Sequence record: NC_052654.1
Reading direction: 5' to 3' (one strand)
Origin: Escherichia phage vB_EcoM-Ro121c4YLVW
Length of the DNA: 64,000 nucleotides
Below are positions 4,265 to 41,312 of this stretch, one piece after another (positions within the stretch are counted from its first letter, which is position 1; every line of letters begins with the position of its first letter). The notes under the pieces were generated by a model. That model was not told the DNA's origin and searched no databases. It saw only the letters and a list, made by a program, of their open reading frames with translations. Both the position numbers and the translations under genes were made by a program.

Positions 4265-4272
4265 TGTTCCTC

Positions 4273-4747: not shown

Positions 4748-4772
4748 TGCACACCTCCATTCTTGTTAAGAT

Positions 4773-4977
4773 GTTCCGTACTGTACTTCATACTGATCTA
4801 TAGATCAAGTATTATTTATAATAATTTATTATTTTATTTTTAATTGATAGAAGTTGATCTGTACGTACCAGTTCTGATACACTGTACCTGTTTGTTAGAT
4901 CTAATAATTATTTATTATTAATATTTAATAATTATTAATCTAGTACGGAGTACAGTACTTGAGTACAGAGTACTACA
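4773..4977. repeat. AT-rich divergent intergenic region flanked by GTAC-rich imperfect inverted repeats (GTACTGTAC / GTACAGTAC) with GATC palindromes
   Basis: Direct reading: ccgtactgtacttcatactg at about 4775 and gtacggagtacagtacttgagtacagagtac at about 4945 flank about 150 bp of more than 85% A+T; sits between minus- and plus-strand gene blocks. Confidence 0.5.
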
Positions 4978-5227
4978 TCAACAACCTAAAACCTTAACTC
5001 GCTGCGCTCGTTAATAGATTTCTAGGGTAGCATACTTCGAACACAAAAGTCAAGAGTTTTATTAAAATTATTTTCTGTGTGCAAAAACCTTGCTTAAACA
5101 GGTAGCAATAGTATAGCCTATAACATAAGCTTCATAAGAGGCTCGTAGAGCAAGTTCACTTACTAGGTAAGGTGATTTATCATCTTATATATAAAAAGTG
5201 CGTCAGAGACGCGTTTAGGAGGCTAGA

Positions 5228-5551
5228 ATGAGATTTACAAGACAAGAGGTAGTTGTGCTGGACGAAGCAATGACAATGATCGTCTTTTACTACGAGGATA
5301 TCTTCTGTGCAGCATATCATTTAAATGACATTCAGATCGAATGGCAGCAGATAGCATTTTTGTTGGACAAGAGTACTCATTTGGATGGCTTTGAGTATTT
5401 GGAATGGGATGGTGCAAAGGAAGTTAAAATTGTAGGGTTAAATCACGATCAGATTGTTGACATGCAATGTAAGTTGTGTCATTATCAGTTCTCAAACAAA
5501 GTCAAACTCGAAAGGCAATTGGAGGTGGTTAAAGATGATAGCACTAATTAG
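5228..5551 (+). CDS. hypothetical protein
   Basis: ORF track; SD AGGAGG upstream. Confidence 0.5.
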   Translation: MRFTRQEVVVLDEAMTMIVFYYEDIFCAAYHLNDIQIEWQQIAFLLDKSTHLDGFEYLEWDGAKEVKIVGLNHDQIVDMQCKLCHYQFSNKVKLERQLEVVKDDSTN

Positions 5552-5651
5552 TGAGAATCCAGTCCTGACAACAATTGTTCTGATTTTTGCCATGTGTGTG
5601 GTTCACGATGTTCTGGTAAGTTATTTTGACAACAAAGGAGGTAAGAAATGA
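5535..5651 (+). CDS. small membrane protein (38 aa)
   Basis: Internal Met of ORF 5454..5651 preceded by GGAGGTGG; hydrophobic helix. Confidence 0.35.
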   Translation: MIALISENPVLTTIVLIFAMCVVHDVLVSYFDNKGGKK

Positions 5652-5842
5652 AAGACGTTATTCAAATGGTATTCCGTGTAACTCTAGATGGTATACACGT
5701 TGTTAAAGGCACACAGAACTACACAGAAGCGAAAGAACACTTCTTAGAGTGGATTGATACACTGAAGACACAAGATGTGTCCTACAGCCGTGTTACGCTT
5801 ACTGGCGACCATACCCCAATCATGGAGTACGTAAAGAAATGA
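5648..5842 (+). CDS. hypothetical protein
   Basis: ORF track; SD AAGGAGG; stop/start overlap with neighbours. Confidence 0.5.
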   Translation: MKDVIQMVFRVTLDGIHVVKGTQNYTEAKEHFLEWIDTLKTQDVSYSRVTLTGDHTPIMEYVKK

Positions 5843-6078
5843 GCAACTATCCAATTACAGGCGTAACCTATTCTTGTGTAGCAAAAGGTGGTTTATATAC
5901 GGTAGTGGAATTTCCAAAACCTGCCGGAATATCTAAAGTGTTTGATCCTGTGGTTATCTATGAAGATCTTAGAACAGGTCAACGTTACTGGAGATTTGTG
6001 AATGACTTTTTAGATCGTATGGAGGTAGTAAGTGGCGAAAACACCGAAGAAGTTATCAAAGCCAAAGAACGTTACTAA
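5839..6078 (+). CDS. hypothetical protein
   Basis: ORF track; start overlaps upstream stop. Confidence 0.45.
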   Translation: MSNYPITGVTYSCVAKGGLYTVVEFPKPAGISKVFDPVVIYEDLRTGQRYWRFVNDFLDRMEVVSGENTEEVIKAKERY

Positions 6079-6385
6079 GAAACCGAAAAACGAGGTTCTC
6101 AAAGTAGCCAAATCAGTTCCTAAGAAAGATAAATTTGATACGGAGGCATTCGTCTTTGACACACCAATCGAGAAGATTGAAGAAGCGTTGCAACGTCTTG
6201 AGGAGCAGGAGGCAGATCCAATGGCTGAACCACTCACGGCAGACCAAATTTATTGGTGGGGAATATGGACTTTGCAACTACCAGAAGCAAAAAGAAGGGG
6301 AATGACTTCGGTTCCTACTTGTGCAAAAGAAGCGGCTGTGTTAGGTTTGTATGAGAAATCTAAAAAGAGGAGCAAAAAGAAATGA
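6032..6385 (+). CDS. hypothetical lysine-rich protein (GTG start)
   Basis: ORF track; GGAGG upstream of GTG; overlaps 3' end of upstream gene by 47 nt. Confidence 0.4.
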   Translation: MAKTPKKLSKPKNVTKKPKNEVLKVAKSVPKKDKFDTEAFVFDTPIEKIEEALQRLEEQEADPMAEPLTADQIYWWGIWTLQLPEAKRRGMTSVPTCAKEAAVLGLYEKSKKRSKKK

Positions 6386-6663
6386 TCAAGACTTTCCTGA
6401 AGTGTGTAAAAGCAACAGATAACGAGTGGTACTCTGGATTATTCACTGCTGGCAAGAAATACGAGATCCTCAACGGGACAGGCAAGAAGTTTTCTCTCGT
6501 TGTAAACGATGAAGGCACGAAGCAAATGGTATTTGCTGAAAGTTCTGTTTATGGTATTTTTGAAGTAGTGCAAGAAGGCTCTCCAATGATTCTGGAATAT
6601 CATGGCACTAATAAACCATATACTACTATGGATGTTATCAACAATAAGAGGAATGCAAAATGA
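6382..6663 (+). CDS. hypothetical protein
   Basis: ORF track; ATGA stop-start overlap. Confidence 0.5.
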   Translation: MIKTFLKCVKATDNEWYSGLFTAGKKYEILNGTGKKFSLVVNDEGTKQMVFAESSVYGIFEVVQEGSPMILEYHGTNKPYTTMDVINNKRNAK

Positions 6664-6842
6664 TTTTACTTTATTCCGGTAAGGCGAAATACATGCAAGG
6701 TGTTAAACGTGTAGAGGTTACTAAGACAGTAACAATCGGAAAATCTTTTATAGTTTATTATTTCATTATTAATGGGAAGGAGTATGCTGTAGCAAAAACC
6801 TTGGTTGATAATGGTAAAACGTGGAAAGTGGAGGCACTATGA
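6660..6842 (+). CDS. hypothetical protein
   Basis: ORF track; ATGA overlap. Confidence 0.45.
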   Translation: MILLYSGKAKYMQGVKRVEVTKTVTIGKSFIVYYFIINGKEYAVAKTLVDNGKTWKVEAL

Positions 6843-7045
6843 TCCCTGTAGCTGGGTGGGTGGTATTGGCAACACTTAATGGGAATGTTACTGTGGAGAC
6901 TAAAACCATCTTCAAAGCACCAGAAGATTGCTATAACTCCTTGGTAACTTGGCCTCGTGATGATGATGATAAGGCAGAGTATCAGTGTTTTTACATTGAG
7001 GGTAATCCTGTAGAATTTGAGGTTAAAGTGAAGGAGGAAAAATGA
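6839..7045 (+). CDS. hypothetical protein
   Basis: Internal Met of ORF 6821..7045 preceded by GGAGG. Confidence 0.45.
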   Translation: MIPVAGWVVLATLNGNVTVETKTIFKAPEDCYNSLVTWPRDDDDKAEYQCFYIEGNPVEFEVKVKEEK

Positions 7046-7512
7046 GAATTAAAGTAACTAAAGCTTACGATGATAACCCGAAGTTTATCTCTTTGAATAA
7101 GAGTTATGGTGTCGAAAACGGCGATGAGTTCGAGGTTATCGATCTTTTTGAGGACCACGGTTATATTGTCAAAGCCCCAATCACAGAGCAGGCTATTATC
7201 ATCTTACGCACAGAGGCTGTTGAGGTAGGTTCTGATGAGCCTCAATATGACAGCCCATACATGACAGAGTGGATCGTAGCTGTGGATGTTGGAGGTATGG
7301 TTTCTGTACTGAAGGCTCCTAATCTCCATCCTAGTTTTACAGAGAACGGTAAGACAGCTTTGGATTATGGGTTGCCAGAAGATGTTGAGAATACACCGCC
7401 AGGTATGTACCGTTGGATTTGCTCTTTCCATGAAGAGAAGGATTGGGAATCAGGGCTTGTTGATGATTGGCATTTTGAAGTGGAAAGTTCTTTTTTAATC
7501 ATGCCAGCTTAA
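7042..7512 (+). CDS. hypothetical protein
   Basis: ORF track; SD GGAGG. Confidence 0.5.
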   Translation: MRIKVTKAYDDNPKFISLNKSYGVENGDEFEVIDLFEDHGYIVKAPITEQAIIILRTEAVEVGSDEPQYDSPYMTEWIVAVDVGGMVSVLKAPNLHPSFTENGKTALDYGLPEDVENTPPGMYRWICSFHEEKDWESGLVDDWHFEVESSFLIMPA

Positions 7513-7522
7513 AGGAGGTTAT

Positions 7523-7867
7523 ATGAAAGTTTGGATAGATGATATGCGGAACCCAGCCGACTATGGACAGGAGGATGCAATTTGGTTTAAAACGTCACAA
7601 GAAGCTATGGCCTTTCTCAACGATCCTGCTAAACTGTATCGAAGAGTAACCGAGTGGTCTTTTGACAATGATTTAGGTATGGAGTCAGACCAAGATGGGT
7701 ATGATGTTTTCCTGTACCTGGAAGAACTTCTGGCGTTTGGTAAACCTTGCTTTGGTTCACCCACCATTTTCGTGCATACTTCTAATCCCGCCGCTGGGGA
7801 TAAATTCATGCTTGCAAAAGAATCTATGCTGCGTTATGGTATTAAAATGATTCGTGTGCACTACTAA
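7523..7867 (+). CDS. hypothetical protein
   Basis: ORF track; SD AGGAGG. Confidence 0.5.
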   Translation: MKVWIDDMRNPADYGQEDAIWFKTSQEAMAFLNDPAKLYRRVTEWSFDNDLGMESDQDGYDVFLYLEELLAFGKPCFGSPTIFVHTSNPAAGDKFMLAKESMLRYGIKMIRVHY

Positions 7868-7876
7868 GGAGAGAAC

Positions 7877-8020
7877 ATGCATCATTCGGTTTGGTCGGAA
7901 CAAGAAGAGGACGAAGGTTACTTTATCTACCGAGAAGAAGAGGATTGGCCCGACACAAGTAATGATCTTTTACTTCCAGACACTAGTTTTTTCGAGGATA
8001 ACTTAAGAGAGGAGGATTAG
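7877..8020 (+). CDS. small acidic hypothetical protein (about 47 aa)
   Basis: ATG after GGAGAG; fills gap between genes. Confidence 0.3.
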   Translation: MHHSVWSEQEEDEGYFIYREEEDWPDTSNDLLLPDTSFFEDNLREED

Positions 8021-8026
8021 GAAACA

Positions 8027-8383
8027 ATGAGTGGTATTGAAAACAATATTTGTTACCAACCTCTTACCTGGATGGGTGAGGGTCATTATGCGCAACGTGT
8101 TATCGTCTGTGCTGCAAATAAGTATATTTTGAATAATGGTGAAGAGTTAATTATTCCTTGTGTTCGACATGCAAATCCTGTACTATATGCACAGTTAAAC
8201 GTGTTGAAAGAAGCAGGTGTAATCAACAAAACTTTGTGCACACCAGATAATCAAGGCTTTATCGATCAGTATTACAATTGGTGGAGTCGTGCGGATGCTT
8301 ACATCATCGCGGAAAATGCTGACCAGATCGACCATGAGCGTAATGGTCACGACCATGAATTATTTAGCGAGGGATTATACTAA
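8027..8383 (+). CDS. hypothetical protein
   Basis: ORF track; SD GGAGGA. Confidence 0.5.
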   Translation: MSGIENNICYQPLTWMGEGHYAQRVIVCAANKYILNNGEELIIPCVRHANPVLYAQLNVLKEAGVINKTLCTPDNQGFIDQYYNWWSRADAYIIAENADQIDHERNGHDHELFSEGLY

Positions 8384-8934
8384 TGTTTATTACAAGCGAT
8401 TTGCATTTTATGCATAAACGTATTCGAGAGTTTGCTCCTGAATATCGTCCGTGGGAAGATATGGACCACATGACAGAAGCCTTGATCGAAGCATGGAACA
8501 AATGTGCTACTACTCCTGGTGTTAAGATGTGGCATTTGGGCGACTTCTGTTTCGGAACTGAAGAAGATACCCGTAAAATTGCTTCTCGTCTCCAAGGAGA
8601 TATCACCTACTGTGTTGGGAACCATGACTACAGCAAACACCGAGAAGTGCTTGCAGAGTATGGTGAAGTGGTGTATTATGACGAAGTGAAATATCAGAAG
8701 CTGTTCTTCGTCTTAAGTCATTACCCTATGGCCTCCTGGAATAAACAAGGTCGTGGATCAATCATGCTACACGGGCATTCCCACGGATCTTTCCCTGATG
8801 AAGCTTATGGTAAAATGTTAGATGTGGGTTGGGATGCACACGGAAAAATCTTGCATTTTGATGAGATAATTTCTATGATGAGTAAACGAGATATCGTGAC
8901 TGTAGACCATCACAAAATAATCAAAGGAGAGTAA
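8383..8934 (+). CDS. calcineurin-like metallophosphoesterase
   Basis: Motifs SDLH, GDFxFG, GNHD, GHSHG (metallophosphatase signature); ATGA overlap with upstream gene. Confidence 0.65.
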   Translation: MFITSDLHFMHKRIREFAPEYRPWEDMDHMTEALIEAWNKCATTPGVKMWHLGDFCFGTEEDTRKIASRLQGDITYCVGNHDYSKHREVLAEYGEVVYYDEVKYQKLFFVLSHYPMASWNKQGRGSIMLHGHSHGSFPDEAYGKMLDVGWDAHGKILHFDEIISMMSKRDIVTVDHHKIIKGE

Positions 8935-8935
8935 T

Positions 8936-9868
8936 GTGACTAAATTTAATTGCGACGATTTGGTTGAAAAAGGTTTAGTTCATAAGAAAACATATAAAGA
9001 AGGAGAGTATTCTGGTCTATCTGTTCTTAAGTATAAGAACAAAGTTTTCTGGGATAACTTATGGAGCATTGATTCTCGTCTTCTAGAATGTCGCGGAATC
9101 GTTGTTGATGCTGATGACAATGTTGTTATTTGGCCTTTCACTAAGATTTTTAATCGTTTTGAGAATGGCACAGATCTACCATTGGATGAACTTGTAGATG
9201 TGGTTCGTAAAGTAAATGGTTTTATGGCCTCTGTAGGTGTATATAAAGGTCAACTTATTGTATCGACAACAGGAAGCCTTGAATCAGATTTTGCAAGTAT
9301 TGCAAAGAATCGTATTGTTTCAGAGTGTGATGACATAGAACATTTCATCAAATGGACAGAGAGTGCAAAAGCAACTTTCCTTTTTGAAATCTGTGATCCT
9401 TCTGATCCGCATATTGTCGAAGAAGAACCAGGTGCATACTTAATTGGTGCCAGAATTCAAAATCCTGATGGGACAAGTTTTATGTTACCTGAAGGTGCTC
9501 TTGATGGAATTGCTTCTGTCACCAAATTTAAGCGTCCTGAAGTTCATCCAATGGTTAAGTTTTCAGATGTTGTTGAAATGTCTAAACATTGTAAACACGA
9601 AGGGTTTGTAGTTCGTGAAACAAACTATCCGTTCAACTTACTTTTAAAAATTAAATCACCACACTATCTTACTAAGAAGTTTCTTATGCGCGGTGGAGAT
9701 AAAAAGTGGGATCTGATTTGGGATAATCCAAAAAATGCCAAACAAATGGTTGACGAAGAATATTACGCTTTGTTAGAATGGATTCGAAATAATTTTACGA
9801 AGACTCAATGGGCTGCTTTAAATCAGCAAGAGCGACGTGAAAAAATCGAAAACTTTTTTGGAGGATAA
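8936..9868 (+). CDS. ligase-family nucleotidyltransferase, RNA-ligase-like (motif I KVNG, motif V EGFVVRE)
   Basis: GTG start; lysine nucleotidyltransferase motifs with Asn in place of Asp in motif I; sits between phosphoesterase and polynucleotide kinase. Confidence 0.45.
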   Translation: MTKFNCDDLVEKGLVHKKTYKEGEYSGLSVLKYKNKVFWDNLWSIDSRLLECRGIVVDADDNVVIWPFTKIFNRFENGTDLPLDELVDVVRKVNGFMASVGVYKGQLIVSTTGSLESDFASIAKNRIVSECDDIEHFIKWTESAKATFLFEICDPSDPHIVEEEPGAYLIGARIQNPDGTSFMLPEGALDGIASVTKFKRPEVHPMVKFSDVVEMSKHCKHEGFVVRETNYPFNLLLKIKSPHYLTKKFLMRGGDKKWDLIWDNPKNAKQMVDEEYYALLEWIRNNFTKTQWAALNQQERREKIENFFGG

Positions 9869-10273
9869 ATGAAACAACTTATCATTTTACGTGGCGTTTC
9901 AGGTGCTGGTAAATCTACAGTAGCAGAAATTATTTCTGAAGGTTATTGGCCTATCTGTGAGGCAGATCAATATCATTACACAGAGAGTGGTGTTTACGAT
10001 TGGAAGCCAGAAAATGTAGGTAAAGCACACGCATGGTGTCAGGGTATTGTTCGTGATGCTATGGCATCTAATCTTAACAAGATTATTGTTTCTAATACTT
10101 CAACCACAGAGAAAGAACTTAAACCTTATCTAGCTCTTGCTGAAGAGTTTGGTTATCAAGTTATCTCTTTAATTGTTGAAAATAGGCACGGTAATGATTC
10201 AATTCACGAGGTTCCACAATATATCCGTGATCAGCAAGAGAAACGTCTTCGTGGTTCACTTAAACTTCAATAA
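9869..10273 (+). CDS. P-loop polynucleotide-kinase-like protein
   Basis: Walker A GVSGAGKST at N-terminus, size and layout like the T4 Pnk kinase domain. Confidence 0.55.
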   Translation: MKQLIILRGVSGAGKSTVAEIISEGYWPICEADQYHYTESGVYDWKPENVGKAHAWCQGIVRDAMASNLNKIIVSNTSTTEKELKPYLALAEEFGYQVISLIVENRHGNDSIHEVPQYIRDQQEKRLRGSLKLQ

Positions 10274-10282
10274 GGAGAAATA

Positions 10283-10609
10283 ATGCAGATTTATACAGAT
10301 GATCGTAAATATGAGACAATTTTAGATGAAGATACTGGACGAATTACCGTTCTCCGTCACGGTGAAGAGTGGCGTGATGAAACGGGAGACAATTATATCT
10401 TGTCTCTGATTCATCTTATTGAACAAATGCGTGATGATTACGCTGAACTGCATTATGAAAATGAGGCTAATAAAGTAAAATTTGAAAATGAATTAGAAGA
10501 GAAAGAATCCGAAATGGTATATCTAAAAGAAGAGATCTCCCGTTTGGAGGAAGAGATTGATGCTCTTCAAGAAGAGATTTACGAACTCAACAACGAACTG
10601 AACGCTTAA
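10283..10609 (+). CDS. hypothetical coiled-coil protein
   Basis: ORF track; E/L-rich heptads. Confidence 0.45.
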   Translation: MQIYTDDRKYETILDEDTGRITVLRHGEEWRDETGDNYILSLIHLIEQMRDDYAELHYENEANKVKFENELEEKESEMVYLKEEISRLEEEIDALQEEIYELNNELNA

Positions 10610-10618
10610 GGAGGGATT

Positions 10619-10810
10619 ATGAAAAAAGATATCGTTGTTGTTGGTTGGCTGACTTGCCCTTGTGGTAGTAATGACATAACTGTAAACACAGAGGGTGATA
10701 AAAATTATTTATTCTACGGGGATAAAATCACTTGCAATACCTGCGGACGTGTTGGTATTATAGAAACCGATGATTGTTGTGCTTTTGAATCTTGGGATGA
10801 AGAAGAATGA
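10619..10810 (+). CDS. small zinc-ribbon protein (CPCG...CNTCG)
   Basis: ORF track; two CxxC pairs. Confidence 0.45.
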   Translation: MKKDIVVVGWLTCPCGSNDITVNTEGDKNYLFYGDKITCNTCGRVGIIETDDCCAFESWDEEE

Positions 10811-11028
10811 GTACTGCATTTTATGTTCGTAGCGGAGACGAGGATTTTCTAGCTACTTTTGATGACGGTGATCTTGAAGATATGTATGAAGATATGCTTG
10901 ACTATGCCAAAGGGCAAGGTTTCACAAGCATTGATTATATGTTGGCAACATCTACAACGTTACTCGACGCAGATTTGGATGAAGTGTGTAACAGATTGAA
11001 AATTTCAGTTTTTAAATGGGAGGACTAA
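10807..11028 (+). CDS. hypothetical acidic protein
   Basis: ORF track. Confidence 0.4.
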   Translation: MSTAFYVRSGDEDFLATFDDGDLEDMYEDMLDYAKGQGFTSIDYMLATSTTLLDADLDEVCNRLKISVFKWED

Positions 11029-12143
11029 TGCAACAAACAAATCAAACGCTGTATGGTAAAGATTCAAAAGGAAAACTTAAACAGTGGACAGTATATACAG
11101 ATGGTGCAGTTGTTACTGTAGCTCATGGAAGAGTAGGTGGAAAGATCACAGAAAAATCTTATACAGCAGAAGCAAAAAACATTGGTCGTTCCAATGAAAC
11201 AACACCGGAAGAACAAGCTGAACTTGAAGCTTTTGCCAAATGGACAAAACAGTTAAAGAATGGCTATTATAAAACAAAAGAAGAAGCTGAAAACCATGTT
11301 CCTTCCACACCAATGAAATGCCAGGATTATAAAGATTATCCTGAAAGGGTTGTGTTCCCTGGTTATGCACAATACAAACTGAACGGGTTACGTTCTATGA
11401 TTAACATGAAAGGGGAGTGTTTATCAAAAGCTGGGGAAGTGTATAACCTGCCACCTCATTGGAAAGGTATTCCAAACTTTATTAGTGAAGTTGTTGGTCA
11501 TCCTCTTGATGGTGAAGTGTTTGCTGGGTTAGGTGTCCTTAGTCTGCAACAAATTAACAGTGCTTGGAAGAAGCATAATGCAAATACACCTTTGCTGAAT
11601 TATTACGTATACGATATTCCAGTTCCAGGTCTACCGTTTGAAAAACGTGTTGATGCTCTTGCTGCTCTTAAGGCAGTAGTTGAAGATTATGGTCTTGACG
11701 AGCTTATTTGTGTAGTTCATACAGAGTATATTGAAAACCAAGAGCAGTTTGACGCTTTCTATGAAAAAGCTTTACTTGAGAAAGCTGAAGGTGTAGTATA
11801 TCGTAATGCTCACGGAGTTTACGAATTTGATAAACGTTCTTATGACGTTATTAAACGTAAGCCTCGCCACACCCTTGAAGTTAAAGTAACAAATTCAAAA
11901 AGCGATAAAAATGGCGATGGAGTGTTGACAGGTGAGATGGAAAATGGTAAAGTAGTCGAATTCTTAATGCGTAAAGATGCTCATGAGACTATCAATTATC
12001 GTAAAGCAGAGAATGCTTCTACCTTGATTAATCAGTTCGTTGAAATAGAGTATGAAGAATTTTCAGATGAAGGTATTCCAACAAAACCTGTTGGTGTTCG
12101 TATTCGAGAAATGATCCTAGGCACTTGGGAACCAGCAGAGTAA
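11016..12143 (+). CDS. ATP-dependent nucleic-acid ligase-like nucleotidyltransferase (motif I KLNGLR, III LDGEV, V EGVVYR) with N-terminal WGR-like domain
   Basis: Covalent nucleotidyltransferase motifs in correct order; motif I Asp replaced by Asn. Confidence 0.5.
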   Translation: MGGLMQQTNQTLYGKDSKGKLKQWTVYTDGAVVTVAHGRVGGKITEKSYTAEAKNIGRSNETTPEEQAELEAFAKWTKQLKNGYYKTKEEAENHVPSTPMKCQDYKDYPERVVFPGYAQYKLNGLRSMINMKGECLSKAGEVYNLPPHWKGIPNFISEVVGHPLDGEVFAGLGVLSLQQINSAWKKHNANTPLLNYYVYDIPVPGLPFEKRVDALAALKAVVEDYGLDELICVVHTEYIENQEQFDAFYEKALLEKAEGVVYRNAHGVYEFDKRSYDVIKRKPRHTLEVKVTNSKSDKNGDGVLTGEMENGKVVEFLMRKDAHETINYRKAENASTLINQFVEIEYEEFSDEGIPTKPVGVRIREMILGTWEPAE

Positions 12144-12152
12144 GGAGGAAAA

Positions 12153-12347
12153 ATGTTCTTAGCCATTTTAATCGTTTTCAGTGTACTTTCTTTTTATTGT
12201 ATGAATGCTTCGGAAAACTTTCCTAAGAATTCAAAGAAAAGAACCGTATGTGTTGTGATTGATTCATGTATGTCTGGAGTTGGGTATGCGGTAGTTTCTT
12301 GTTTCTTAGCTTATCATTGTTCAAAATACCTGGAGGCATTTTTATGA
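12153..12347 (+). CDS. small membrane protein
   Basis: ORF track; SD AGGAGG; two hydrophobic helices. Confidence 0.45.
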   Translation: MFLAILIVFSVLSFYCMNASENFPKNSKKRTVCVVIDSCMSGVGYAVVSCFLAYHCSKYLEAFL

Positions 12348-12526
12348 TAATTTTAGCAACAATTCTTATGATGCTGATAGCAATTGCTATTGTAATTCTG
12401 GCATCTTTTCCAGCGGATAAATGGTATTTCAATATTCCACGTATGCTTGTTTTCGGTTTCGCAGGAATTTACATGGGTGAGACTGTAGTAAATATTAGCA
12501 ACTTTCTAGAAAGCTATTTTAAATAA
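12344..12526 (+). CDS. small membrane protein
   Basis: Internal Met of ORF 12266..12526 after GGAGG; hydrophobic. Confidence 0.4.
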   Translation: MIILATILMMLIAIAIVILASFPADKWYFNIPRMLVFGFAGIYMGETVVNISNFLESYFK

Positions 12527-12535
12527 GGAGTTATA

Positions 12536-13261
12536 ATGATCGAGAATTTTTTTAAAGATATTAAGTTCGATACTGAATTTTTCAAAAATGCAGCGAAGCA
12601 CGTGATTGATTGGAATGCTAAAGCACGAGGTGGTGAACAACCTGAATTCACTCAAGAGCTATTTATGTCCCAAATCGGATTCGTTCGTGAAGAGCTTAAA
12701 GAGTATGAAACAGCCGCGAAAGTAAACGATCATGTAGAACTCTTGGATGCAGCAGCGGATATTTTTGTAGTATCCAGTTATCTGACCTACATGTTCTTTG
12801 GTGAAGAACATACGATGAATTTCTTGGACTATGCTGTAGGCGATGTTTTTACTCCAACTGTGTATACTGATTTTGATGCTTTGGAACAAACATTTACAGA
12901 GCCAGTTCAAATGGCACTAATGGCTGCTGGTATTATGCGTATGTCTCGTGACACTCTAATCCGTTCAAAATATCCAGAAAAGAAAGTTATTAAAGAGGTA
13001 TTGAAAAGTAATGATTCCAAGTATCCAACTAAACAACAGTTGCTGAAAACTTGGAAAACTTCGGATATCGATTCAGCCATTGCACAAGAATGCGCTGCAA
13101 TTGAAGAACGAAATGCCAATCGTCCAGAAGGGGCATACACTGGTGTTCATGCTGTTTATAATGAAAAACAGAAAGTGTATGTGTTCTTTGATGATAAAGG
13201 TAAGATCATGAAACCATCGACCTTTGTCAAACCTAATATTGCAGGTATTATTAACAAGTAA
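12536..13261 (+). CDS. MazG-like nucleotide pyrophosphohydrolase (tentative)
   Basis: All-alpha profile with E-x-x-E...D acidic motif (EELKEYE...DAAADI). Confidence 0.35.
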   Translation: MIENFFKDIKFDTEFFKNAAKHVIDWNAKARGGEQPEFTQELFMSQIGFVREELKEYETAAKVNDHVELLDAAADIFVVSSYLTYMFFGEEHTMNFLDYAVGDVFTPTVYTDFDALEQTFTEPVQMALMAAGIMRMSRDTLIRSKYPEKKVIKEVLKSNDSKYPTKQQLLKTWKTSDIDSAIAQECAAIEERNANRPEGAYTGVHAVYNEKQKVYVFFDDKGKIMKPSTFVKPNIAGIINK

Positions 13262-32547: not shown

Positions 32548-33134
32548 TCCGAGGAGTAGTTATGCGTTCAACTTTCACTGGCAAAATAAATGCTGGTTTG
32601 ATTTTTACAGCAGTAAGCATTCTTAGCAAAAAGTTTAAAGTTGTTAACTTACCTGTGTGTGTCGATTTCGATCATGTTTTTGATCCTTCGAACCCCACTC
32701 GTTGCATAGTAAGGAGTAATGTTGAAAACCCAACAGAAAATCTTTTTTATGTAACAAAACCATCTCAAAGCATACTTAACCAGGTTGAGGCGAAATTGAT
32801 ACCTAACGGTAAATATTACTCCTTTTTACCTTGTAAGTCGGTTGAAGTAGAGAATAGCAATACTTTCGCTAATAACTTGTCTGTATTCGTTTTCTTTGTT
32901 TCACAGGAAGACGAAACAGATGAAATGGTAGCAACAGTGAGATCACTTTATGACTCTTTAGGGGTTGTTTATAGTCAACAGGTGTGCGAAAATAATAAAT
33001 CCTGTGTAGATTTCATTATCAACGGTATTTGTGTTTGTAGAGTAGAATCTTTTTGGCTGCACGATACATATGTGACTGTAGCAGAGGTTATATCTGAACC
33101 AAGATTTAGTCATGCGGTTTCGTTAATAATTTGA
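32544..33134 (+). CDS. hypothetical protein
   Basis: ORF track. Confidence 0.45.
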   Translation: MIRGVVMRSTFTGKINAGLIFTAVSILSKKFKVVNLPVCVDFDHVFDPSNPTRCIVRSNVENPTENLFYVTKPSQSILNQVEAKLIPNGKYYSFLPCKSVEVENSNTFANNLSVFVFFVSQEDETDEMVATVRSLYDSLGVVYSQQVCENNKSCVDFIINGICVCRVESFWLHDTYVTVAEVISEPRFSHAVSLII

Positions 33135-36940: not shown

Positions 36941-37882
36941 ATGGTGTTAATTGGTAGCCGTGCATTGCAAATTCATGCTATGGACATGGGAAAAGACTTG
37001 TATCGCCCTTGTGTAGATTTAGATTACCTGTGTACAGAACAAGAGTGGGAAGAATTATCAAAAATGTTCTCTCAAGAGGAGTTTGTTGAACTTGTAGAAC
37101 GTAAAGGAAACAAAGGCCATGTCAAAATGATAGCTGGTGCACATTTGGAATACGATATTGCTTCTCAAGGAGATAGCACAGAAGCTTTGATTAGTTATTG
37201 TGAAGATTCTGATGATGTTCGTCGAACTTACGCTGGACATGTTGTTGCTCCTTTAGATGTGCTCTACCTTCTTAAAATGAGTCATCGTTTTAAAAAGGAT
37301 AGTCCTCACTTCTTTAAAACTATGAAAGATATTCATTTCATGCGGTCACTGGGCGCAAAGATCCCAGAAAATCTTAAGAGTATTTATGAGTTGCGTGAGA
37401 AAGAAACATACACTTACTCTCATCCGAACTTAAACGTAAAAAGTAAAGACTTTTTTAAAGGTGATGAGGTTCCGTATGTTTATGATCATGATTCTATCCA
37501 TGAAGCAATCGCGGTAATGGATGCTCCGGCATATAAATCTTATATGAAAGATGGAAGTGAAGTTATGACCAGCAAAGAAAAGTTTTTTGCTCAACCAAAA
37601 CATGTGCGCCTGTTAGGTGTTTATGAAGAAGCGTGTGTTTTGGCTTTGGAACGTTCACAAATTCCTTTCGGTGGAGAGATCGGAGGTCCAACCCCTAAGC
37701 AAAGTTTTATAATGGCTTTATCTAAAGTCTGCACATCCATCACTAGTGGTTGGTTTAGGGAATATGCTTGGGAAAACTTTTATGTTGTTATTAAGCTATA
37801 TGAAAACATGGGCGAAAACGACTATGTTGAACGTTTTAAAGCTAATCAACATGTAGTAAAGCCTTTTGAAGGAGGTTATTAA
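36941..37882 (+). CDS. hypothetical protein (313 aa)
   Basis: ORF track. Confidence 0.5.
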   Translation: MVLIGSRALQIHAMDMGKDLYRPCVDLDYLCTEQEWEELSKMFSQEEFVELVERKGNKGHVKMIAGAHLEYDIASQGDSTEALISYCEDSDDVRRTYAGHVVAPLDVLYLLKMSHRFKKDSPHFFKTMKDIHFMRSLGAKIPENLKSIYELREKETYTYSHPNLNVKSKDFFKGDEVPYVYDHDSIHEAIAVMDAPAYKSYMKDGSEVMTSKEKFFAQPKHVRLLGVYEEACVLALERSQIPFGGEIGGPTPKQSFIMALSKVCTSITSGWFREYAWENFYVVIKLYENMGENDYVERFKANQHVVKPFEGGY

Positions 37883-37883
37883 T

Positions 37884-38279
37884 ATGTGTGGATATCTTTC
37901 AGAAAGTTATTTCAAAGTGACGCACGAGGATTTAGAAAAAGCACGATTGAAACTGACAGCTATTATTGAATACTCTAATACTGTTGATCACAGATTAAAG
38001 ACTACTAAAGTATCTGTTCCTTGTTGGTTAGGTTTACGGCATAAAATAATGTCTCAACATGACCATGTTGTTCGAGAGATGCATGGTTGGTGTTGGTTTC
38101 ACGATGTGGCTCTGCATTTTGGTTATATTACAGAAGAAGAGCATAGATTCTGTGAACTAACATATCGTATTCCAACCCTTCACGATTTAGATTTGTGGAA
38201 GAAAGCAAACGAGATTTTTCTTACAGAAAGTGATTGGCGTAAAGTTATGGCTTGTCTTGAATGGAGGGGTAATGAGTAA
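37884..38279 (+). CDS. hypothetical protein
   Basis: Internal Met of ORF 37866..38279 after GGAGG. Confidence 0.45.
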   Translation: MCGYLSESYFKVTHEDLEKARLKLTAIIEYSNTVDHRLKTTKVSVPCWLGLRHKIMSQHDHVVREMHGWCWFHDVALHFGYITEEEHRFCELTYRIPTLHDLDLWKKANEIFLTESDWRKVMACLEWRGNE

Positions 38280-38955
38280 AACAGTTTTGTCTATGTTTGA
38301 CGGATCTGGGATCATGGTGTTACGTTATGCCGAAGCAGGTCACAAGTGTTTTTGTGTAAACGCTGATGAAGGGGATCACGGTAAATACGAGGTTAGGATG
38401 GAGCACCCAAACATAACCTATGTGAATGCCTGGATAGATTCTACATTCAACCCTGAAGATCATGGGATACCTAAACCCGATATTATTTTTGGATTTCCAC
38501 CTTGCACTATGTTAGCAGGTAGTGGTAGCAAACACGAACGCAGCACAGAGGAATTGGATGAAGCTTTAGCTAATATTCGTGTAGTGGAAGCTTTGGGTAA
38601 CAAATATAATGTTCCTTGGATGATTGAGAACCCAGTAGGTAAACTTTCAACCTTATGGCGTAAACCCGATTTTTACTTTGATCCTTATGAGTATGGTGGG
38701 TATTTGTTTGAAGAGGAAGGAAGCTTTCATCCTAAAATGCCTACCCGTGATGGGTATACAAAGAAAACTTGTATTTGGCACGGCAATGGTTTTGTTCAAC
38801 CAGTGAAGAAACCAGTAGATCATATAGGCTGCTTCTGGGGTTGGAAAAGCTTAGGTGGAGCTAGTGCAAAAACAAAACAACTTAGATCACTAACCGCACG
38901 TGGTTTTGCTCGTGCAGTGTTTTTGTCTAACAATCTTCTAGATAAGGAGAAATAA
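38272..38955 (+). CDS. C5-cytosine-methyltransferase-like SAM-dependent enzyme (tentative)
   Basis: Motif order FDGSG (I), GFPPC (IV, PC), ENP (VI-like), R-rich C-terminus; short for a complete Dcm. Confidence 0.4.
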   Translation: MSKTVLSMFDGSGIMVLRYAEAGHKCFCVNADEGDHGKYEVRMEHPNITYVNAWIDSTFNPEDHGIPKPDIIFGFPPCTMLAGSGSKHERSTEELDEALANIRVVEALGNKYNVPWMIENPVGKLSTLWRKPDFYFDPYEYGGYLFEEEGSFHPKMPTRDGYTKKTCIWHGNGFVQPVKKPVDHIGCFWGWKSLGGASAKTKQLRSLTARGFARAVFLSNNLLDKEK

Positions 38956-39608
38956 TGTTAAATTCAAAACCAGTGGTTGCTTATCAAGTAGATCGTAATG
39001 ATGGTGAAGGAAGTGTTGTTATTTTCAGTACACACGGTCTTGAGGCTCGTCGAAAAGGTGCATATCGTTTAGAATGTGAGTTTGAAGACTGCACAAGCCA
39101 CCGTGTCAAACAATTCGATCAATATGCTGATAAAGGCTTCGTCCCTATCAAAGCGTTACTGGAAGATGGTTGGTGGGTATATTCTGCTTTTGATTACTCA
39201 AAACTGGAGGAGTCAGCTTCGTGCGCCTCCGAGATCGAATATGATGATTACTATGACACTCTATACCTTCCAGAATGGCTTGTCTTTTCTCCTGATGAGA
39301 GAAGTGTCTGGAAAACGTGGGAAGAAATGGAGAGACATGCGTATAGCATCAATGAAGCTTTAGATCGTAAAACTTGGTTTATTGAGGCAGTAAAGGCGGC
39401 ATACCCCCAATTCTCATTCTGTGATTTCACTGGCGGCCCAGGATACATTACACATACAGCCTCTTTTGAGTTTCCTGGTTCACGTTATAAGGGTAATGTT
39501 TATTGGGACTGGGATGAAAATAAACAACCTTCGGCTCAAGACTTCCGTTGCTATGTTTGTCAAGGCGATCAAGAAGCCCTTGACAAATACCTACAAAATC
39601 TGGTATAG
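38955..39608 (+). CDS. hypothetical protein
   Basis: ORF track. Confidence 0.45.
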   Translation: MLNSKPVVAYQVDRNDGEGSVVIFSTHGLEARRKGAYRLECEFEDCTSHRVKQFDQYADKGFVPIKALLEDGWWVYSAFDYSKLEESASCASEIEYDDYYDTLYLPEWLVFSPDERSVWKTWEEMERHAYSINEALDRKTWFIEAVKAAYPQFSFCDFTGGPGYITHTASFEFPGSRYKGNVYWDWDENKQPSAQDFRCYVCQGDQEALDKYLQNLV

Positions 39609-39624
39609 TGCCAGCATCTGAACA

Positions 39625-39653
39625 AAGCCTCCTGTTTCAGGGGGCTTTTCTTT
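39625..39653 (+). terminator. intrinsic terminator AGCCTCCTG-tttc-AGGGGGCT + TTTTCTTTT
   Basis: Direct reading. Confidence 0.55.
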
Positions 39654-39666: not shown

Positions 39667-40152
39667 ATGTTTCAAGTAAATGTCAATGTGCATAATAGTT
39701 ACTCTGATTGTGAAACGTGTGGCTATAATTCATCTAATGTTATTCGTATTAGTGGCGATTTAGGAGAAGCTTCTTTTGGAGAAGAAGCAAGTTGCTTTAG
39801 TGGTATGGATGCAGAATGGAATGATATTGCACATTGGTTAGTGAGCAAACTAAAAGAAAAAGAGAAACCATTTCCTACTCTGCTTGATCGTTCTCTTGTG
39901 GAAGATGCAGGTAAAGCATATGCAGACTATGCGTATGCAGACGGGAAATATTTGGAAGATGATAAGGCTAACCATTTGCTTTATGTTTACTATGAAGCTG
40001 AATCTGCCTACGATAATTATTACAGCATGTCTAACATCCTACGTCTGTTTGCAGAGTTTGATATTTATTTCGAAGTAGAATTTTCAGAAGATGATACTTA
40101 CGAGTACAATTCTTATGATCCATTTGAGGAGGAAGAATGCCAAGACGAGTGA
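39667..40152 (+). CDS. hypothetical acidic protein
   Basis: ORF track. Confidence 0.45.
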   Translation: MFQVNVNVHNSYSDCETCGYNSSNVIRISGDLGEASFGEEASCFSGMDAEWNDIAHWLVSKLKEKEKPFPTLLDRSLVEDAGKAYADYAYADGKYLEDDKANHLLYVYYEAESAYDNYYSMSNILRLFAEFDIYFEVEFSEDDTYEYNSYDPFEEEECQDE

Positions 40153-40952
40153 TTTTTGTAAGCGGTGCAGGTTTAAGTGCAGACAGTGGGATTCGAACAT
40201 TTAGAACAGACACAGATAGTGGTCGTGCTTTATGGGAAGAATATGATTTAGAAGAGGTCTGCGATATTGGAGCTTTCCAAGCAGGTTATCGTGTTAGAAC
40301 ATCTCCAGATCTTCCAGTGGTCGGTGGTGTAGACGAGAACGGTATGGATTTGTATGCCAAAACACACGAATTTTATAACAAAAGACGTGTTGAGCTTAAA
40401 GATGTACAACCTAATGCTGCACATATTCAAATAGCAAAGTGGTTTAAGGAATATCCTAACCAAATAGTAAACTTGACAACAAACGTTGATGATCTACTAG
40501 AGCGAGCAGGTGTAGACAGAGATTCTGTTATTCACGTACACGGATATCTTCCTGAAGTAGTTTACCGTATGCATCCCGGAGATTACAAAACACTGGTAGA
40601 TATTGGTTACAATAGTATAAACATAGATGATTATAACTGGGTGAAGCCTAATGTTGTATTTTTTGGTGAGGCTGCACCTTTGTATGCAGATATGGCTCAC
40701 TTGTTCGATACTTTGACCATGCAAGATTTGGTTGTAGTAGTAGGATGTTCAAACCAAGTTATCAATTTTAATTGGGAATTATTTCCTGCACTTAGTATGG
40801 GTACAAAAATGGTTGTAGTTAACCCTGGAGTTAATTACGAAGAAACACTTCTCTATGAAGATCGTGGAGTTTTTGTTTACCGAGAAAAAGCTGCAACAGC
40901 CTTCAGCAATGAAGGTTTCATTAAAATGGTCGAAGACCACTTAAACAAATAA
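40137..40952 (+). CDS. Sir2-family (sirtuin-like) NAD-dependent protein
   Basis: N-terminal FVSGAGLSADSGIRTFR matches sirtuin NAD-binding signature; VHVHGYL catalytic His region. Confidence 0.65.
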   Translation: MPRRVIFVSGAGLSADSGIRTFRTDTDSGRALWEEYDLEEVCDIGAFQAGYRVRTSPDLPVVGGVDENGMDLYAKTHEFYNKRRVELKDVQPNAAHIQIAKWFKEYPNQIVNLTTNVDDLLERAGVDRDSVIHVHGYLPEVVYRMHPGDYKTLVDIGYNSINIDDYNWVKPNVVFFGEAAPLYADMAHLFDTLTMQDLVVVVGCSNQVINFNWELFPALSMGTKMVVVNPGVNYEETLLYEDRGVFVYREKAATAFSNEGFIKMVEDHLNK

Positions 40953-40960
40953 ACCACTCA

Positions 40961-40983
40961 AGGGGCTTCGGCCCCTTTCTTAT
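40961..40983 (+). terminator. intrinsic terminator AGGGGC-TTCG-GCCCCT + TTTCTT
   Basis: Direct reading. Confidence 0.55.
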
Positions 40984-40995: not shown

Positions 40996-41268
40996 ATGAC
41001 TGAAGAAATCCGTGATTACTACCTTGCACATTACGTTTACTACTTTGCCAATGCTACACAAAAAGGGGAAGGTAATCTTTACTTGGCAACAGGACATGGA
41101 ACAGGCGTTAGGAAATCAAATATTGATAATGCCTTGGCTCAAGTGGCTGCGGGGCTAGAAGATAAACTTCAAACACCTGTAGTTGTAGTGATGCAAAATA
41201 TAAATTACCTAGCAAGTTGTACTGAAACCGAATTTAACGCGTCTGAGACGCAATCTAACGAAGAATAA
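40996..41268 (+). CDS. hypothetical protein
   Basis: ORF track; SD AGGAGAA. Confidence 0.45.
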   Translation: MTEEIRDYYLAHYVYYFANATQKGEGNLYLATGHGTGVRKSNIDNALAQVAAGLEDKLQTPVVVVMQNINYLASCTETEFNASETQSNEE

Positions 41269-41282
41269 AACAAAGGCACCCA

Positions 41283-41312
41283 AGTGGGTGCCTTTTCTAT
41301 TTTAGAGCGTCT
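41283..41312. terminator. bidirectional terminator between convergent gene blocks (GGCACCC-aagt-GGGTGCC flanked by T/A runs)
   Basis: Direct reading. Confidence 0.55.

What the first reader, a model, noticed from the sequence alone, without database searches (positions are those of the whole stretch)
40137..40952. Phage-encoded Sir2-like (sirtuin-fold) protein
The N-terminus FVSGAGLSADSGIRTFR matches the sirtuin NAD-binding signature (GAGIS-x-x-SGIP-x-FR) and a VHVHGY catalytic-His region follows. In bacteria, Sir2 domains are frequent effectors of anti-phage systems that deplete NAD+; a phage-borne copy could be a protein deacylase or ADP-ribosyltransferase that modifies host targets, or a decoy or regulator of host Sir2-based defence.
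Basis: partly seen in the sequence, partly recalled or inferred. Interest (0 to 1): 0.6.

Follow-up and report, generated by a model that had tools for sequence, protein, structure and literature searches.

The report
Known zinc-less phage sirtuin gene
This is a real, almost certainly active sirtuin (NAD+-using) enzyme gene in an E. coli phage, but it belongs to a large phage sirtuin family that is already annotated and discussed in print, and whose true substrate (proteins or damaged RNA) has still not been tested.

Summary
ORF 40137..40952 (+, 271 aa) is a true sirtuin: Pfam SIR2 E=1.9e-22; AlphaFold model pLDDT 89.8; best structural matches are E. coli CobB, Sir2-Af1 and SIRT5. The NAD-binding, Asn/Asp and catalytic His residues are invariant in 119 close relatives.

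It is not new. The window is a phAPEC8-like Phapecoctavirus. The protein is 100% identical to an annotated gene of phage Schickermooser, matches phrog_2162 over its full length, and has homologues in about 980 phage records, including T5. Two papers already treat this family: one noted the missing zinc site and proposed protein deacetylation, the other predicted a Tpt1/KptA-like RNA-repair role.

It is unrelated to defence Sir2 (no PADLOC hit, no partner domain, CobB-like fold), and invariant catalytic residues argue against a decoy.

The clade keeps the CobB acyl pocket, including the Y-x-x-R anion-binding pair. It has lost all four zinc cysteines and the Pro of the VxP substrate loop, and carries an invariant Cys at the CobB Ala76 position.

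In T5-like, rV5/Mydo-like and jumbo phages the gene sits beside RNA-end-healing genes. In this phage that module lies about 27–32 kb away.

The substrate is unresolved: deacylase about 0.4, RNA 2'-phosphate transfer about 0.33. Interest is low to moderate.

The parts
40137..40952 (+). Sirtuin gene (271 aa), a member of the zinc-less phage sirtuin clade (phrog_2162). Key residues: G10-A11-G12-x-S14, F22-R23, C42, Y80-x-x-R83, N116/D118, H135 (catalytic), F176-G-E178, G203-C-S205, N229.
40126..40132 (+). Shine-Dalgarno sequence GAGGAGG, 4 nt upstream of the ATG. It lies inside the 3' end of the upstream ORF.
   Evidence: read directly from the sequence
39667..40152 (+). Upstream 161-aa acidic ORF (phrog_9509, function unknown) that overlaps the sirtuin start by 16 nt. 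It is lineage-specific: replaced or absent in divergent relatives.
39624..39648 (+). Intrinsic terminator-like hairpin that closes the upstream operon, so the 161-aa ORF and the sirtuin form a bracketed two-gene unit.
   Evidence: ARNOLD terminator in the Schickermooser annotation
40960..40977 (+). Intrinsic terminator-like hairpin (GGGGCTTCGGCCCC followed by a T-run) directly after the sirtuin stop codon.
38272..38955 (+). Context: short C5-cytosine-methyltransferase-like gene (motifs FDGSG, FPPC, ENP; phrog_757). It stays linked to the sirtuin in this lineage and abuts it in Grimontviridae.
7523..10273 (+). Context, about 27-32 kb away: the RNA-end-healing module that flanks the sirtuin in rV5/Mydo-like phages. 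It comprises the cREC homologue 7523..7867, calcineurin-like phosphoesterase 8383..8934, T4-Rnl1-like RNA ligase 8936..9868 and kinase-only PNK 9869..10273.

Best explanation
The gene encodes a catalytically competent, single-domain sirtuin of the phage-specific zinc-less clade (phrog_2162, the family of T5 gene T5.102 and the KVP40-type Sir2). This clade derives from class-III (CobB/SIRT5-like) sirtuins.

Shown: the fold, the NAD+ site, the catalytic Asn/Asp/His, and a CobB-like acyl pocket including the anion-binding Tyr80/Arg83 pair are all present and invariant.

Inferred mechanism: the enzyme binds NAD+ and expels nicotinamide when an oxygen nucleophile held in that pocket attacks C1'' of the ribose. 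His135 then activates the ribose 2''-OH to resolve the adduct.

My leading candidate for the nucleophile is an acyl-lysine on a host or phage protein, probably a negatively charged acyl group such as succinyl or malonyl, given the Y-x-x-R pair. That would make the protein an NAD+-dependent protein deacylase expressed with the phage's early/middle nucleotide-metabolism genes. The choice of substrate is inference, not demonstration, and is only slightly favoured over the RNA 2'-phosphate rival.
For: - Pfam SIR2 scores well above its cutoff.
- The closest solved sequences and structures are deacylases: E. coli CobB, Sir2-Af1, SIRT5, Sir2Tm. The AF2 model has pLDDT 89.8 and pTM 0.87. Foldseek against CobB gives E=5e-17 and TM 0.83-0.85.
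- Residue mapping uses the alignment plus the CobB mutant names in the PDB titles. CobB Y92, R95, N130, D132, H147, V187, F190 and V219 correspond to phage Y80, R83, N116, D118, H135, V173, F176 and V208. All are invariant in 119/119 close cluster representatives.
- The FGE-x-PL substrate loop is conserved with CobB.
- In this window the gene is not next to RNA-repair genes. It sits at the end of a nucleotide-metabolism/auxiliary cluster.
- An earlier in-silico and transcript study of the KVP40-type homologue reached the same deacetylase reading (PMC5107563).
Against: - No biochemical test of any member was found.
- All NCBIfam CobB models score far below their cutoffs, for example 106 against 243 and 86 against 320, so this is not a CobB orthologue.
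- The zinc Cys4 site is gone.
- By gap-free extension of the alignment, the Pro of the substrate-binding V-x-P loop (CobB P221) is Asn or Asp in every close member. CobB Ala76 is an invariant Cys.
- In four other lineages the neighbours are RNA-end-healing or ADP-ribose-processing enzymes. No acetyltransferase or metabolic-enzyme neighbour was seen in any lineage examined.
- From general knowledge, the host already has CobB.
Confidence: 0.4

Rival explanations
1. RNA-repair sirtuin, a Tpt1/KptA analogue, as predicted by Iyer, Burroughs, Anantharaman and Aravind 2022. The nucleophile would be the 2'-phosphate left at an RNA (tRNA) repair junction or end. The enzyme would transfer it to NAD+, releasing nicotinamide and ADP-ribose 1''-2'' cyclic phosphate. 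That would complete repair of tRNAs cut by host anticodon nucleases, together with the phage RNA ligase, kinase-only PNK, cREC/2H/HAD/calcineurin phosphoesterases and Nudix/MazG/macro enzymes.
For: - Independently reproduced here. In rV5-like MaxBurger the order is RNA ligase - cREC - sirtuin, with PNK, a phosphoesterase and tRNAs alongside.
- In a Mydo-like Klebsiella phage the order is RNA ligase - cREC homologue - PNK - sirtuin - DNA ligase - MazG.
- In an Erwinia jumbo phage the order is 2H/Acb1-family - sirtuin - Nudix - cREC, with NAMPT upstream.
- In 29 of 32 T5-like loci a HAD_SAK_2 'RNA repair' phosphatase lies two small ORFs downstream.
- In Grimontviridae, a calcineurin phosphatase, MazG-like and Poa1p-like macrodomain genes lie nearby.
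- 2H, Poa1p-type macro and Nudix enzymes are those that would digest the Tpt1 product (established tRNA-splicing biochemistry).
- The invariant Tyr80/Arg83 anion-binding pair could hold a phosphate (my inference).
- The window phage carries the complete partner set and 10 tRNAs.
- Published prediction: PMC9503650 section 3.7.3.
Against: - In this phage the sirtuin is about 27-32 kb from the RNA-repair module. In the slot it occupies in Mydo-like phages (between PNK and DNA ligase), the reference annotation lists only three small ORFs.
- No neighbour is universal across the 10 lineages.
- The clade is strongly acidic, with median pI 4.97 and net charge -6 to -19, and has no RNA-binding domain.
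- The hydrophobic lysine-tunnel residues of CobB are retained.
- No sirtuin has been shown to act on RNA, and no experimental test was found.
Confidence: 0.33
2. A protein (or DNA) ADP-ribosyltransferase or a plain NAD+ glycohydrolase that reprogrammes or shuts down the host. It would be analogous in role to T4 Alt/ModA/ModB or to SirTM-type sirtuins.
For: Sirtuin chemistry allows ADP-ribosyl transfer (PMC9503650). NAD+ salvage genes lie near the sirtuin in several lineages: NAMPT in 3 lineages and an NMNAT-like gene in 2. That fits a heavy NAD+ consumer. One GenBank record labels it 'putative Sir2-like transferase'.
Against: No macrodomain partner lies next to the gene here, unlike SirTM systems. 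The pocket is CobB-like, including Y-x-x-R. The structural neighbours are deacylases. NAMPT linkage fits any NAD+-consuming reaction equally well.
Confidence: 0.15
3. Counter-defence decoy, sponge or regulator aimed at host Sir2-based immunity (ThsA, DSR, SIR2-HerA, SPARSA).
For: Only the shared superfamily name, plus the general fact that phages counter NAD+-depleting defences.
Against: PADLOC gives no significant match. The fold neighbours are housekeeping-type sirtuins, not immune SIR2. All catalytic residues are under strict conservation, which a decoy would not need. In the papers read here, the described phage counter-measures to NAD+ depletion are NAD+ reconstitution pathways, not sirtuins.
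Confidence: 0.03

Closest known systems
Phage sirtuin family phrog_2162 (T5 gene T5.102; KVP40/nt-1-type Sir2; rV5, Mydo-like and jumbo-phage sirtuins)
   Same: It matches the family HMM over its full length (E=2.8e-104). It is 100% identical to Schickermooser gp056, 52% to T5, 46-47% to Vequintavirus and 36% to nt-1. It shares the zinc-less small domain and the same invariant residues.
   Different: In this lineage the gene sits away from the RNA-repair module, next to a C5-MTase-like gene. It also carries the optional insert of about 25 residues (positions ~47-72) that the 249-258-aa members lack.
E. coli CobB and other class-III sirtuins (SIRT5, Sir2-Af1): NAD+-dependent lysine deacylases
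   Same: Same two-domain fold (TM 0.83-0.85), the GAGxS...FR NAD site, N/D/H catalytic residues, the Y-x-x-R pair, the FGE loop and the acyl-pocket residues.
   Different: Only about 27% identical, and far below the NCBIfam CobB cutoffs. There are no zinc cysteines. Ala76 is replaced by an invariant Cys and Pro221 of the VxP loop by Asn/Asp. The protein is acidic.
Tpt1/KptA RNA 2'-phosphotransferase
   Same: Possible functional analogy. It also consumes NAD+ and releases nicotinamide. The phage sirtuin occupies RNA-ligase/PNK/phosphoesterase neighbourhoods in several lineages.
   Different: An entirely different fold, with no sequence match. The activity is untested for any sirtuin. The neighbourhood is absent in this window.
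Defence-associated SIR2 NADases (ThsA, DSR1/2, SIR2-HerA, SIR2-APAZ)
   Same: Same broad Rossmann-type SIR2 superfamily. These also lack the zinc site (from established knowledge).
   Different: No PADLOC or SIR2_2 match, no sensor or partner domain, and a CobB-like rather than immune-type structure.
SirTM (macrodomain-linked ADP-ribosylating sirtuins)
   Same: Sirtuin fold, and possible ADP-ribosyl-transfer chemistry.
   Different: No adjacent macrodomain gene here. The class-III Y-x-x-R pocket is retained.

Membership tests
Sirtuin superfamily (Pfam SIR2, PF02146) | HMM score above the gathering threshold | tested here: met
   80.5 bits against a cutoff of 24, E=1.9e-22
Sirtuin superfamily (Pfam SIR2, PF02146) | Rossmann NAD-binding domain plus small domain; GAGxS and FR motifs | tested here: met
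   AF2 model pLDDT 89.8; Foldseek TM 0.83-0.85 to CobB; G10-A11-G12-x-S14 and F22-R23 invariant
Sirtuin superfamily (Pfam SIR2, PF02146) | Catalytic His and the TxNxD Asn/Asp | tested here: met
   H135 = CobB H147; N116/D118 = CobB N130/D132; 119/119 invariant
Sirtuin superfamily (Pfam SIR2, PF02146) | Cys4 zinc ribbon in the small domain | tested here: not met
   Only C42 and C204 are conserved, and neither lies in the ribbon. There are 0 Cys between HG and KPNVV in the close clade. More distant relatives keep CxxC...CxxC at the same length. Previously noted for KVP40-type members (PMC5107563).
Phage sirtuin clade (phrog_2162) | Full-length match to the family profile, and residence in virulent phage genomes | tested here: met
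   E=2.8e-104, residues 2-271; 982 phage records carry a homologue; 100% identical to QBQ80209.1 / YP_009823722.1
CobB-type class-III deacylase (NCBIfam NF040867, NF001753 and related models) | Score above the curated equivalog/subfamily cutoff | tested here: not met
   Best scores 106.3 against 243, 85.9 against 320 and 84.9 against 318
CobB-type class-III deacylase | Y-x-x-R pair that binds acidic acyl groups (CobB Y92/R95, SIRT5 Y102/R105) | tested here: met
   Y80 and R83 align to CobB Y92/R95 and are invariant in 119/119
CobB-type class-III deacylase | NAD+-dependent removal of acyl groups from lysine | not testable with these tools
   Needs an enzyme assay. No published assay of any phage member was found.
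Defence-associated SIR2 (ThsA, DSR, SIR2-HerA, SPARSA) | Match to defence-system SIR2 profiles, and a fused or adjacent sensor/partner (SLOG, HerA, pAgo, DSR C-terminal region) | tested here: not met
   The best PADLOC hit is E=0.017 over 37 residues. The protein is a single 271-aa domain. None of the ten neighbours scanned has such a domain.
SirTM | Operonic macrodomain partner | tested here: not met
   No Macro domain in the ten neighbouring ORFs scanned
Tpt1/KptA (considered as a functional analogue only) | KptA/Tpt1 fold (PF01885) | tested here: not met
   Only PF02146 matches. Any likeness would be in reaction chemistry, not family membership.
Tpt1/KptA (considered as a functional analogue only) | Genomic linkage to RNA ligase and end-healing enzymes | tested here: inconclusive
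   Met in the rV5/Mydo-like, jumbo and T5-like lineages. Not met in this window, where the module lies about 27-32 kb away.

The most novel reading that the evidence does not exclude
The zinc-less phage sirtuin clade, including this gene, does not act on proteins at all. Instead it is a sirtuin-fold RNA 2'-phosphotransferase (or RNA/DNA-end ADP-ribosyltransferase). It would use its Tyr80/Arg83 anion pocket to hold a phosphate and would complete phage repair of tRNAs cut by host anticodon nucleases. That would be the first nucleic-acid-directed sirtuin. The idea was already put forward by comparative genomics in 2022, so the novelty would lie in proving it.
Probability: 0.33. Interest if true: 0.7.

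Novelty: already known. Interest (0 to 1): 0.25.

Why it matters
As a finding it adds little. The gene is already annotated in GenBank and RefSeq, has its own PHROG family, and has been analysed in two papers.

What remains open is the substrate of a very widespread phage enzyme: about 980 phage records, including the model phage T5. If it turns out to be a Tpt1-like RNA-repair enzyme, that would extend sirtuin chemistry to nucleic acids and add a step to phage counter-measures against tRNA-cleaving defences. If it is a deacylase, it would be a clear case of a virulent phage rewriting the host acyl-proteome. Either result is directly testable with T5 or BASEL-collection phages.

Tried and rejected
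1. **Defence-type Sir2 or decoy.** Rejected. There is no PADLOC or SIR2_2 match, the fold is CobB-like, and the catalytic residues are invariant.
2. **The 90-aa downstream ORF 40996..41268 as a second sirtuin.** Some records (ESCO13, Ro121lw) label it 'Sir2-like protein'. Rejected: it matches phrog_15991 (function unknown) and has no SIR2 match.
3. **T5.105 as a sirtuin.** RefSeq labels it 'Sir2'. Rejected: it is Pfam HAD_SAK_2.
4. **An obligate functional pair with the C5-MTase-like gene 38272..38955.** The linkage is real in two lineages. But the MTase family is widespread in 44-50-kb phage contigs and prophages, well below the 58-kb-and-larger genomes and long contigs in which the sirtuin was found, so this is probably synteny. 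I ran no further search on it.
5. **An obligate pair with the overlapping 161-aa upstream ORF.** It is lineage-specific, and is replaced or absent in L014, L046 and L060.
6. **A universal conserved neighbour of the sirtuin.** None exists across the 10 lineages.
7. **Experimental characterisation in the literature.** Seven full-text searches found none.
8. **NAD+ salvage genes in this phage.** None is annotated in the near-identical Schickermooser genome. It has only a NADAR (DUF1768) protein and a Ter/PRTase cluster, both outside the window.
Full report
**Observation.** The ORF 40137..40952 (+ strand, 271 aa) is present as described. It has a GAGGAGG ribosome-binding site 4 nt upstream of the ATG. 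Its start overlaps the end of an upstream 161-aa ORF by 16 nt. The quoted N-terminal motif is exact. The second quoted string is off by one residue: the sequence reads VIHVHGY.

Statistical support is strong:
- Pfam SIR2 E=1.9e-22, 80.5 bits against a cutoff of 24.
- PHROG phrog_2162 'Sir2 (NAD-dependent deacetylase)' E=2.8e-104 over residues 2-271.
- E. coli CobB 1S5P E=7.6e-19.

**Where it comes from, and whether it is new.** The window is 99.6-99.8% identical to phAPEC8-like myoviruses of genus Phapecoctavirus, such as ESCO25, Schickermooser and ESCO13. The protein is 100% identical to Schickermooser gp056 (QBQ80209.1 / YP_009823722.1), which is annotated 'putative NAD-dependent protein deacetylase' or 'Sir2 (NAD-dependent deacetylase)'.

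A tblastn search finds homologues in 982 phage records. These include T5 (52% identity), Epseptimavirus (about 60%), Vequintavirus (46-47%), Grimontviridae (49%), KVP40-like Vibrio phages (36%) and jumbo phages. The large protein database gives 1801 relatives at E<=1e-5. The 50%-identity representative library gives 2191 at E<=1e-3.

Two papers already deal with this family:
- Skliros et al. 2016 (PMC5107563) modelled the KVP40-type phage Sir2/CobB. They noted the absence of the zinc ligand, listed T5 and other phages as carriers, measured transcript levels during infection, and proposed deacetylation of host enzymes such as Acs.
[quoted passage not shown] From gene neighbourhoods they predicted a KptA-like role in removing RNA 2'-phosphates during RNA repair.

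I found no biochemical or genetic test of any member.

**Anatomy of the protein.** I aligned 36 clade members of 56-94% identity (A1) and then checked 119 cluster representatives. The following positions are invariant:
- G10-A11-G12-x-S14, S17-G18 and F22-R23 (NAD binding)
- Y80-x-x-R83
- N116-V117-D118
- H135-G136
- V173, F176, E178, S205, V208 and N229

The AlphaFold2 model is confident, with mean pLDDT 89.8 and pTM 0.87. It shows the Rossmann domain plus a small domain. The best Foldseek matches are CobB (E=5e-17, TM 0.83-0.85 normalised to the target), Sir2-Af1, SIRT5 and Sir2Tm. No defence-type SIR2 appears in the 50 best matches listed.

I mapped CobB residues onto the phage protein using the HMMER alignment to the CobB crystal chains. 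The numbering is anchored by the A76G and I131C substitutions visible in the mutant chains and named in the PDB titles. The correspondences are:

| CobB residue | Phage residue |
|---|---|
| A76 | C42 |
| Y92 / R95 | Y80 / R83 |
| N130 / I131 / D132 | N116 / V117 / D118 |
| H147 | H135 |
| V187 | V173 |
| F190 | F176 |
| V219 / Y220 / P221 | V208 / I209 / N210 |

The P221-N210 pairing comes from extending the alignment one residue without a gap.

So the catalytic centre and the acyl pocket of a class-III sirtuin are retained. That includes the Tyr/Arg pair, which in CobB and SIRT5 binds the carboxylate of succinyl- or malonyl-lysine (established knowledge).

The clade departs from CobB in five ways:
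- There are no zinc cysteines. The 37-40-residue module between HG and KPNVVFFGE contains 0 Cys in the close clade, while more distant relatives of the same length carry CxxC...CxxC with the same 'IGY...KPNVV' pattern. The metal site was therefore lost within this family.
- An invariant Cys sits at the CobB Ala76 position.
- Asn (112) or Asp (7), never Pro, sits at the Pro of the substrate-binding VxP loop.
- There is a variable insert at about residues 47-72, which the 249-258-aa members lack.
- The protein is uniformly acidic, with median pI 4.97.

It also scores far below every NCBIfam CobB cutoff, so it is not a CobB orthologue.

**Context in the window.** The gene is the second-to-last gene of a long + strand cluster. 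That cluster contains ThyX, NrdAB, RmlABCD, glutaredoxin, PhoH, an HslV-like protein, methyltransferases and a NinI/calcineurin-like phosphatase. It converges on a - strand cluster of small ORFs at a bidirectional terminator (41272..41295).

The 161-aa ORF and the sirtuin are bracketed by terminator-like hairpins at 39624..39648 and 40960..40977. Seven such sites were found, against 1.2 expected from shuffles. The immediate neighbours have no known function: phrog_9509, phrog_8514 and phrog_15991.

The 90-aa downstream ORF is called 'Sir2-like protein' in some records. It is not a sirtuin.

**Context across lineages.** I compared 66 loci. They comprised 59 from IMG/VR, six annotated phages and the window. 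By gene content they fall into 10 lineages. No neighbour is universal. Recurrent partners, by lineage:
- **T5-like (32 loci).** A HAD_SAK_2 'Swiss Army Knife RNA repair' phosphatase (T5.105) lies two small ORFs downstream in 29 loci.
- **rV5/Mydo-like (16 loci).** Rnl1-type RNA ligase, a cREC cyclic-phosphate-processing domain, kinase-only PNK, calcineurin-like phosphoesterase, MazG, ATP-dependent DNA ligase, tRNA genes, and often NAMPT.
- **An Erwinia jumbo phage.** A 2H/Acb1-family phosphoesterase, then the sirtuin, then Nudix, then cREC, with NAMPT and an NMNAT-like gene upstream.
- **Grimontviridae.** A C5-MTase-like gene overlaps the sirtuin start. Poa1p-like macrodomain, MazG-like and metallophosphatase genes lie nearby.

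This reproduces the published RNA-repair association.

In the window's own lineage the association is broken. The cREC homologue (7523..7867), phosphoesterase (8383..8934), RNA ligase (8936..9868), PNK (9869..10273), DNA ligase (11016..12143), MazG (12536..13261) and ten tRNAs (1757..3769) are all present. But they lie about 27-32 kb from the sirtuin.

What stays linked here is the block DUF7275 - C5-MTase-like - 217-aa ORF - small ORF - sirtuin. It survives inversion of the flanking genes in L046 and L060. The MTase-like family, however, is widespread in phages and prophages on contigs (44-50 kb) far smaller than the sirtuin-bearing genomes, so I read this as synteny rather than a functional pair.

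**Mechanism.** This much is shown: an intact sirtuin NAD+ site and catalytic triad, and a CobB-like pocket under strict purifying selection. A decoy or a dead enzyme is therefore very unlikely.

This much is inferred: the enzyme cleaves nicotinamide from NAD+ when an oxygen nucleophile bound in the pocket attacks C1''. His135 then activates the 2''-OH to resolve the adduct. Both leading substrates fit that chemistry.

- **Acyl-lysine (deacylase, about 0.40).** It is favoured by direct homology, by the retained lysine tunnel and FGE loop, by the Y-x-x-R pair, and by the lack of RNA-repair neighbours in this window.
- **RNA 2'-phosphate (Tpt1-like, about 0.33).** It is favoured by the gene neighbourhoods in four lineages. 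It is also favoured by the nearby 2H, macro and Nudix enzymes, which would process ADP-ribose cyclic phosphate, and by the fact that the Tyr/Arg pair could equally well hold a phosphate. Counting against it are the acidic charge, the lack of any RNA-binding module and the broken linkage here.
- **Protein or DNA ADP-ribosyltransferase, or NADase (about 0.15).**
- **Defence decoy or regulator (about 0.03).**

The feature is already known: it is annotated, it has a PHROG family, and both its missing zinc site and its RNA-repair neighbourhoods are published.

The details added here are modest:
- residue-level mapping onto the CobB acyl pocket;
- the invariant Cys42 and the lost VxP proline;
- evidence that the zinc ribbon was lost from a Cys4 ancestor of the same length;
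- relocation of the gene away from the RNA-repair module in Phapecoctavirus;
- the recurrent C5-MTase-like neighbour.

The open question is the real substrate of a very widespread phage enzyme. It is worth an experiment, but as a scan finding this is ordinary.

Noticed in passing
window 40996..41268 (+): This 90-aa ORF just downstream of the sirtuin is labelled 'Sir2-like protein' in the ESCO13 and Ro121lw records. It matches only phrog_15991 (function unknown) and has no SIR2 domain. This looks like an annotation slip of one gene.
   Followed up: yes
L004 7139..7645 (T5 gene T5.105): RefSeq T5 labels this 168-aa protein 'Sir2 (NAD-dependent deacetylase)' through phrog_18062. Pfam identifies it as HAD_SAK_2, the HAD phosphatase of 'Swiss Army Knife' RNA-repair proteins. 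In the same vein, the Sir2 homologue of Pectobacterium phage DU_PP_V (P0061) is named 'tail assembly protein'.
   Followed up: yes
window 7523..13261 and 1757..3769: A complete RNA-end-healing module: cREC homologue, calcineurin-like phosphoesterase, T4 Rnl1-like RNA ligase, kinase-only PNK, ATP-dependent DNA ligase and MazG. It lies next to a cluster of 10 tRNA genes. In Mydo-like phages the sirtuin sits between PNK and DNA ligase. Here the reference annotation lists three small ORFs in that gap.
   Followed up: partly
window 38272..38955 (+): A short (227 aa) C5-cytosine-methyltransferase-like protein with motifs FDGSG, FPPC and ENP. It has no Pfam hit at E<=0.01 and lacks an obvious target-recognition domain. 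It stays linked to the sirtuin through rearrangements in this lineage and overlaps the sirtuin start in Grimontviridae. The family is otherwise widespread in phages and prophages.
   Followed up: partly
window 36941..37882 (+); L006 1843..2604: A DUF7277+DUF7275 protein (phrog_2141) lies about 2.3 kb upstream of the sirtuin, both here and in the distantly related Vibrio phage nt-1 (33% identity). Its function is unknown.
   Followed up: no
window 39580..39648 (+): A near-consensus sigma-70-like promoter (TTGACA, 18 nt, TG-n-TATAGT; 11 of 12 matches) ends at 39609. An 11-bp-stem terminator hairpin (39624..39648) follows immediately, so transcripts from this promoter would run straight into a terminator. 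The reason for this arrangement is unexplained.
   Followed up: no
window 41272..41295: A perfect palindromic hairpin with T-runs on both strands. It would act as a bidirectional terminator where the + strand auxiliary-gene cluster meets the - strand cluster of small ORFs.
   Followed up: no
window 32562..33134 (+): A 190-aa protein carries the PHROG label 'histidyl tRNA synthetase' (phrog_4806). It is far too short for one and has no Pfam match. The reference genome annotates a second protein with the same PHROG-derived label elsewhere (Schickermooser gp202). The label is doubtful.
   Followed up: no
proteins P0140-P0200: More distant relatives of the phage sirtuin keep a CxxC...CxxC zinc ribbon of the same length, with the same 'IGY...KPNVV' pattern. 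The zinc-less state is therefore derived. In the wider family, Cys occupies the CobB Ala76 position in 101 of 128 representatives.
   Followed up: partly
L072 26124..26666 and 1..8055 (Schickermooser genome, outside the window): The same phage encodes a NADAR (DUF1768) protein and a Ter-type cluster (TerD, vWA-TerF, TelA, TerC, PRTase, HAD hydrolase). No NAMPT or NMNAT is annotated, unlike many other sirtuin-bearing phages.
   Followed up: no
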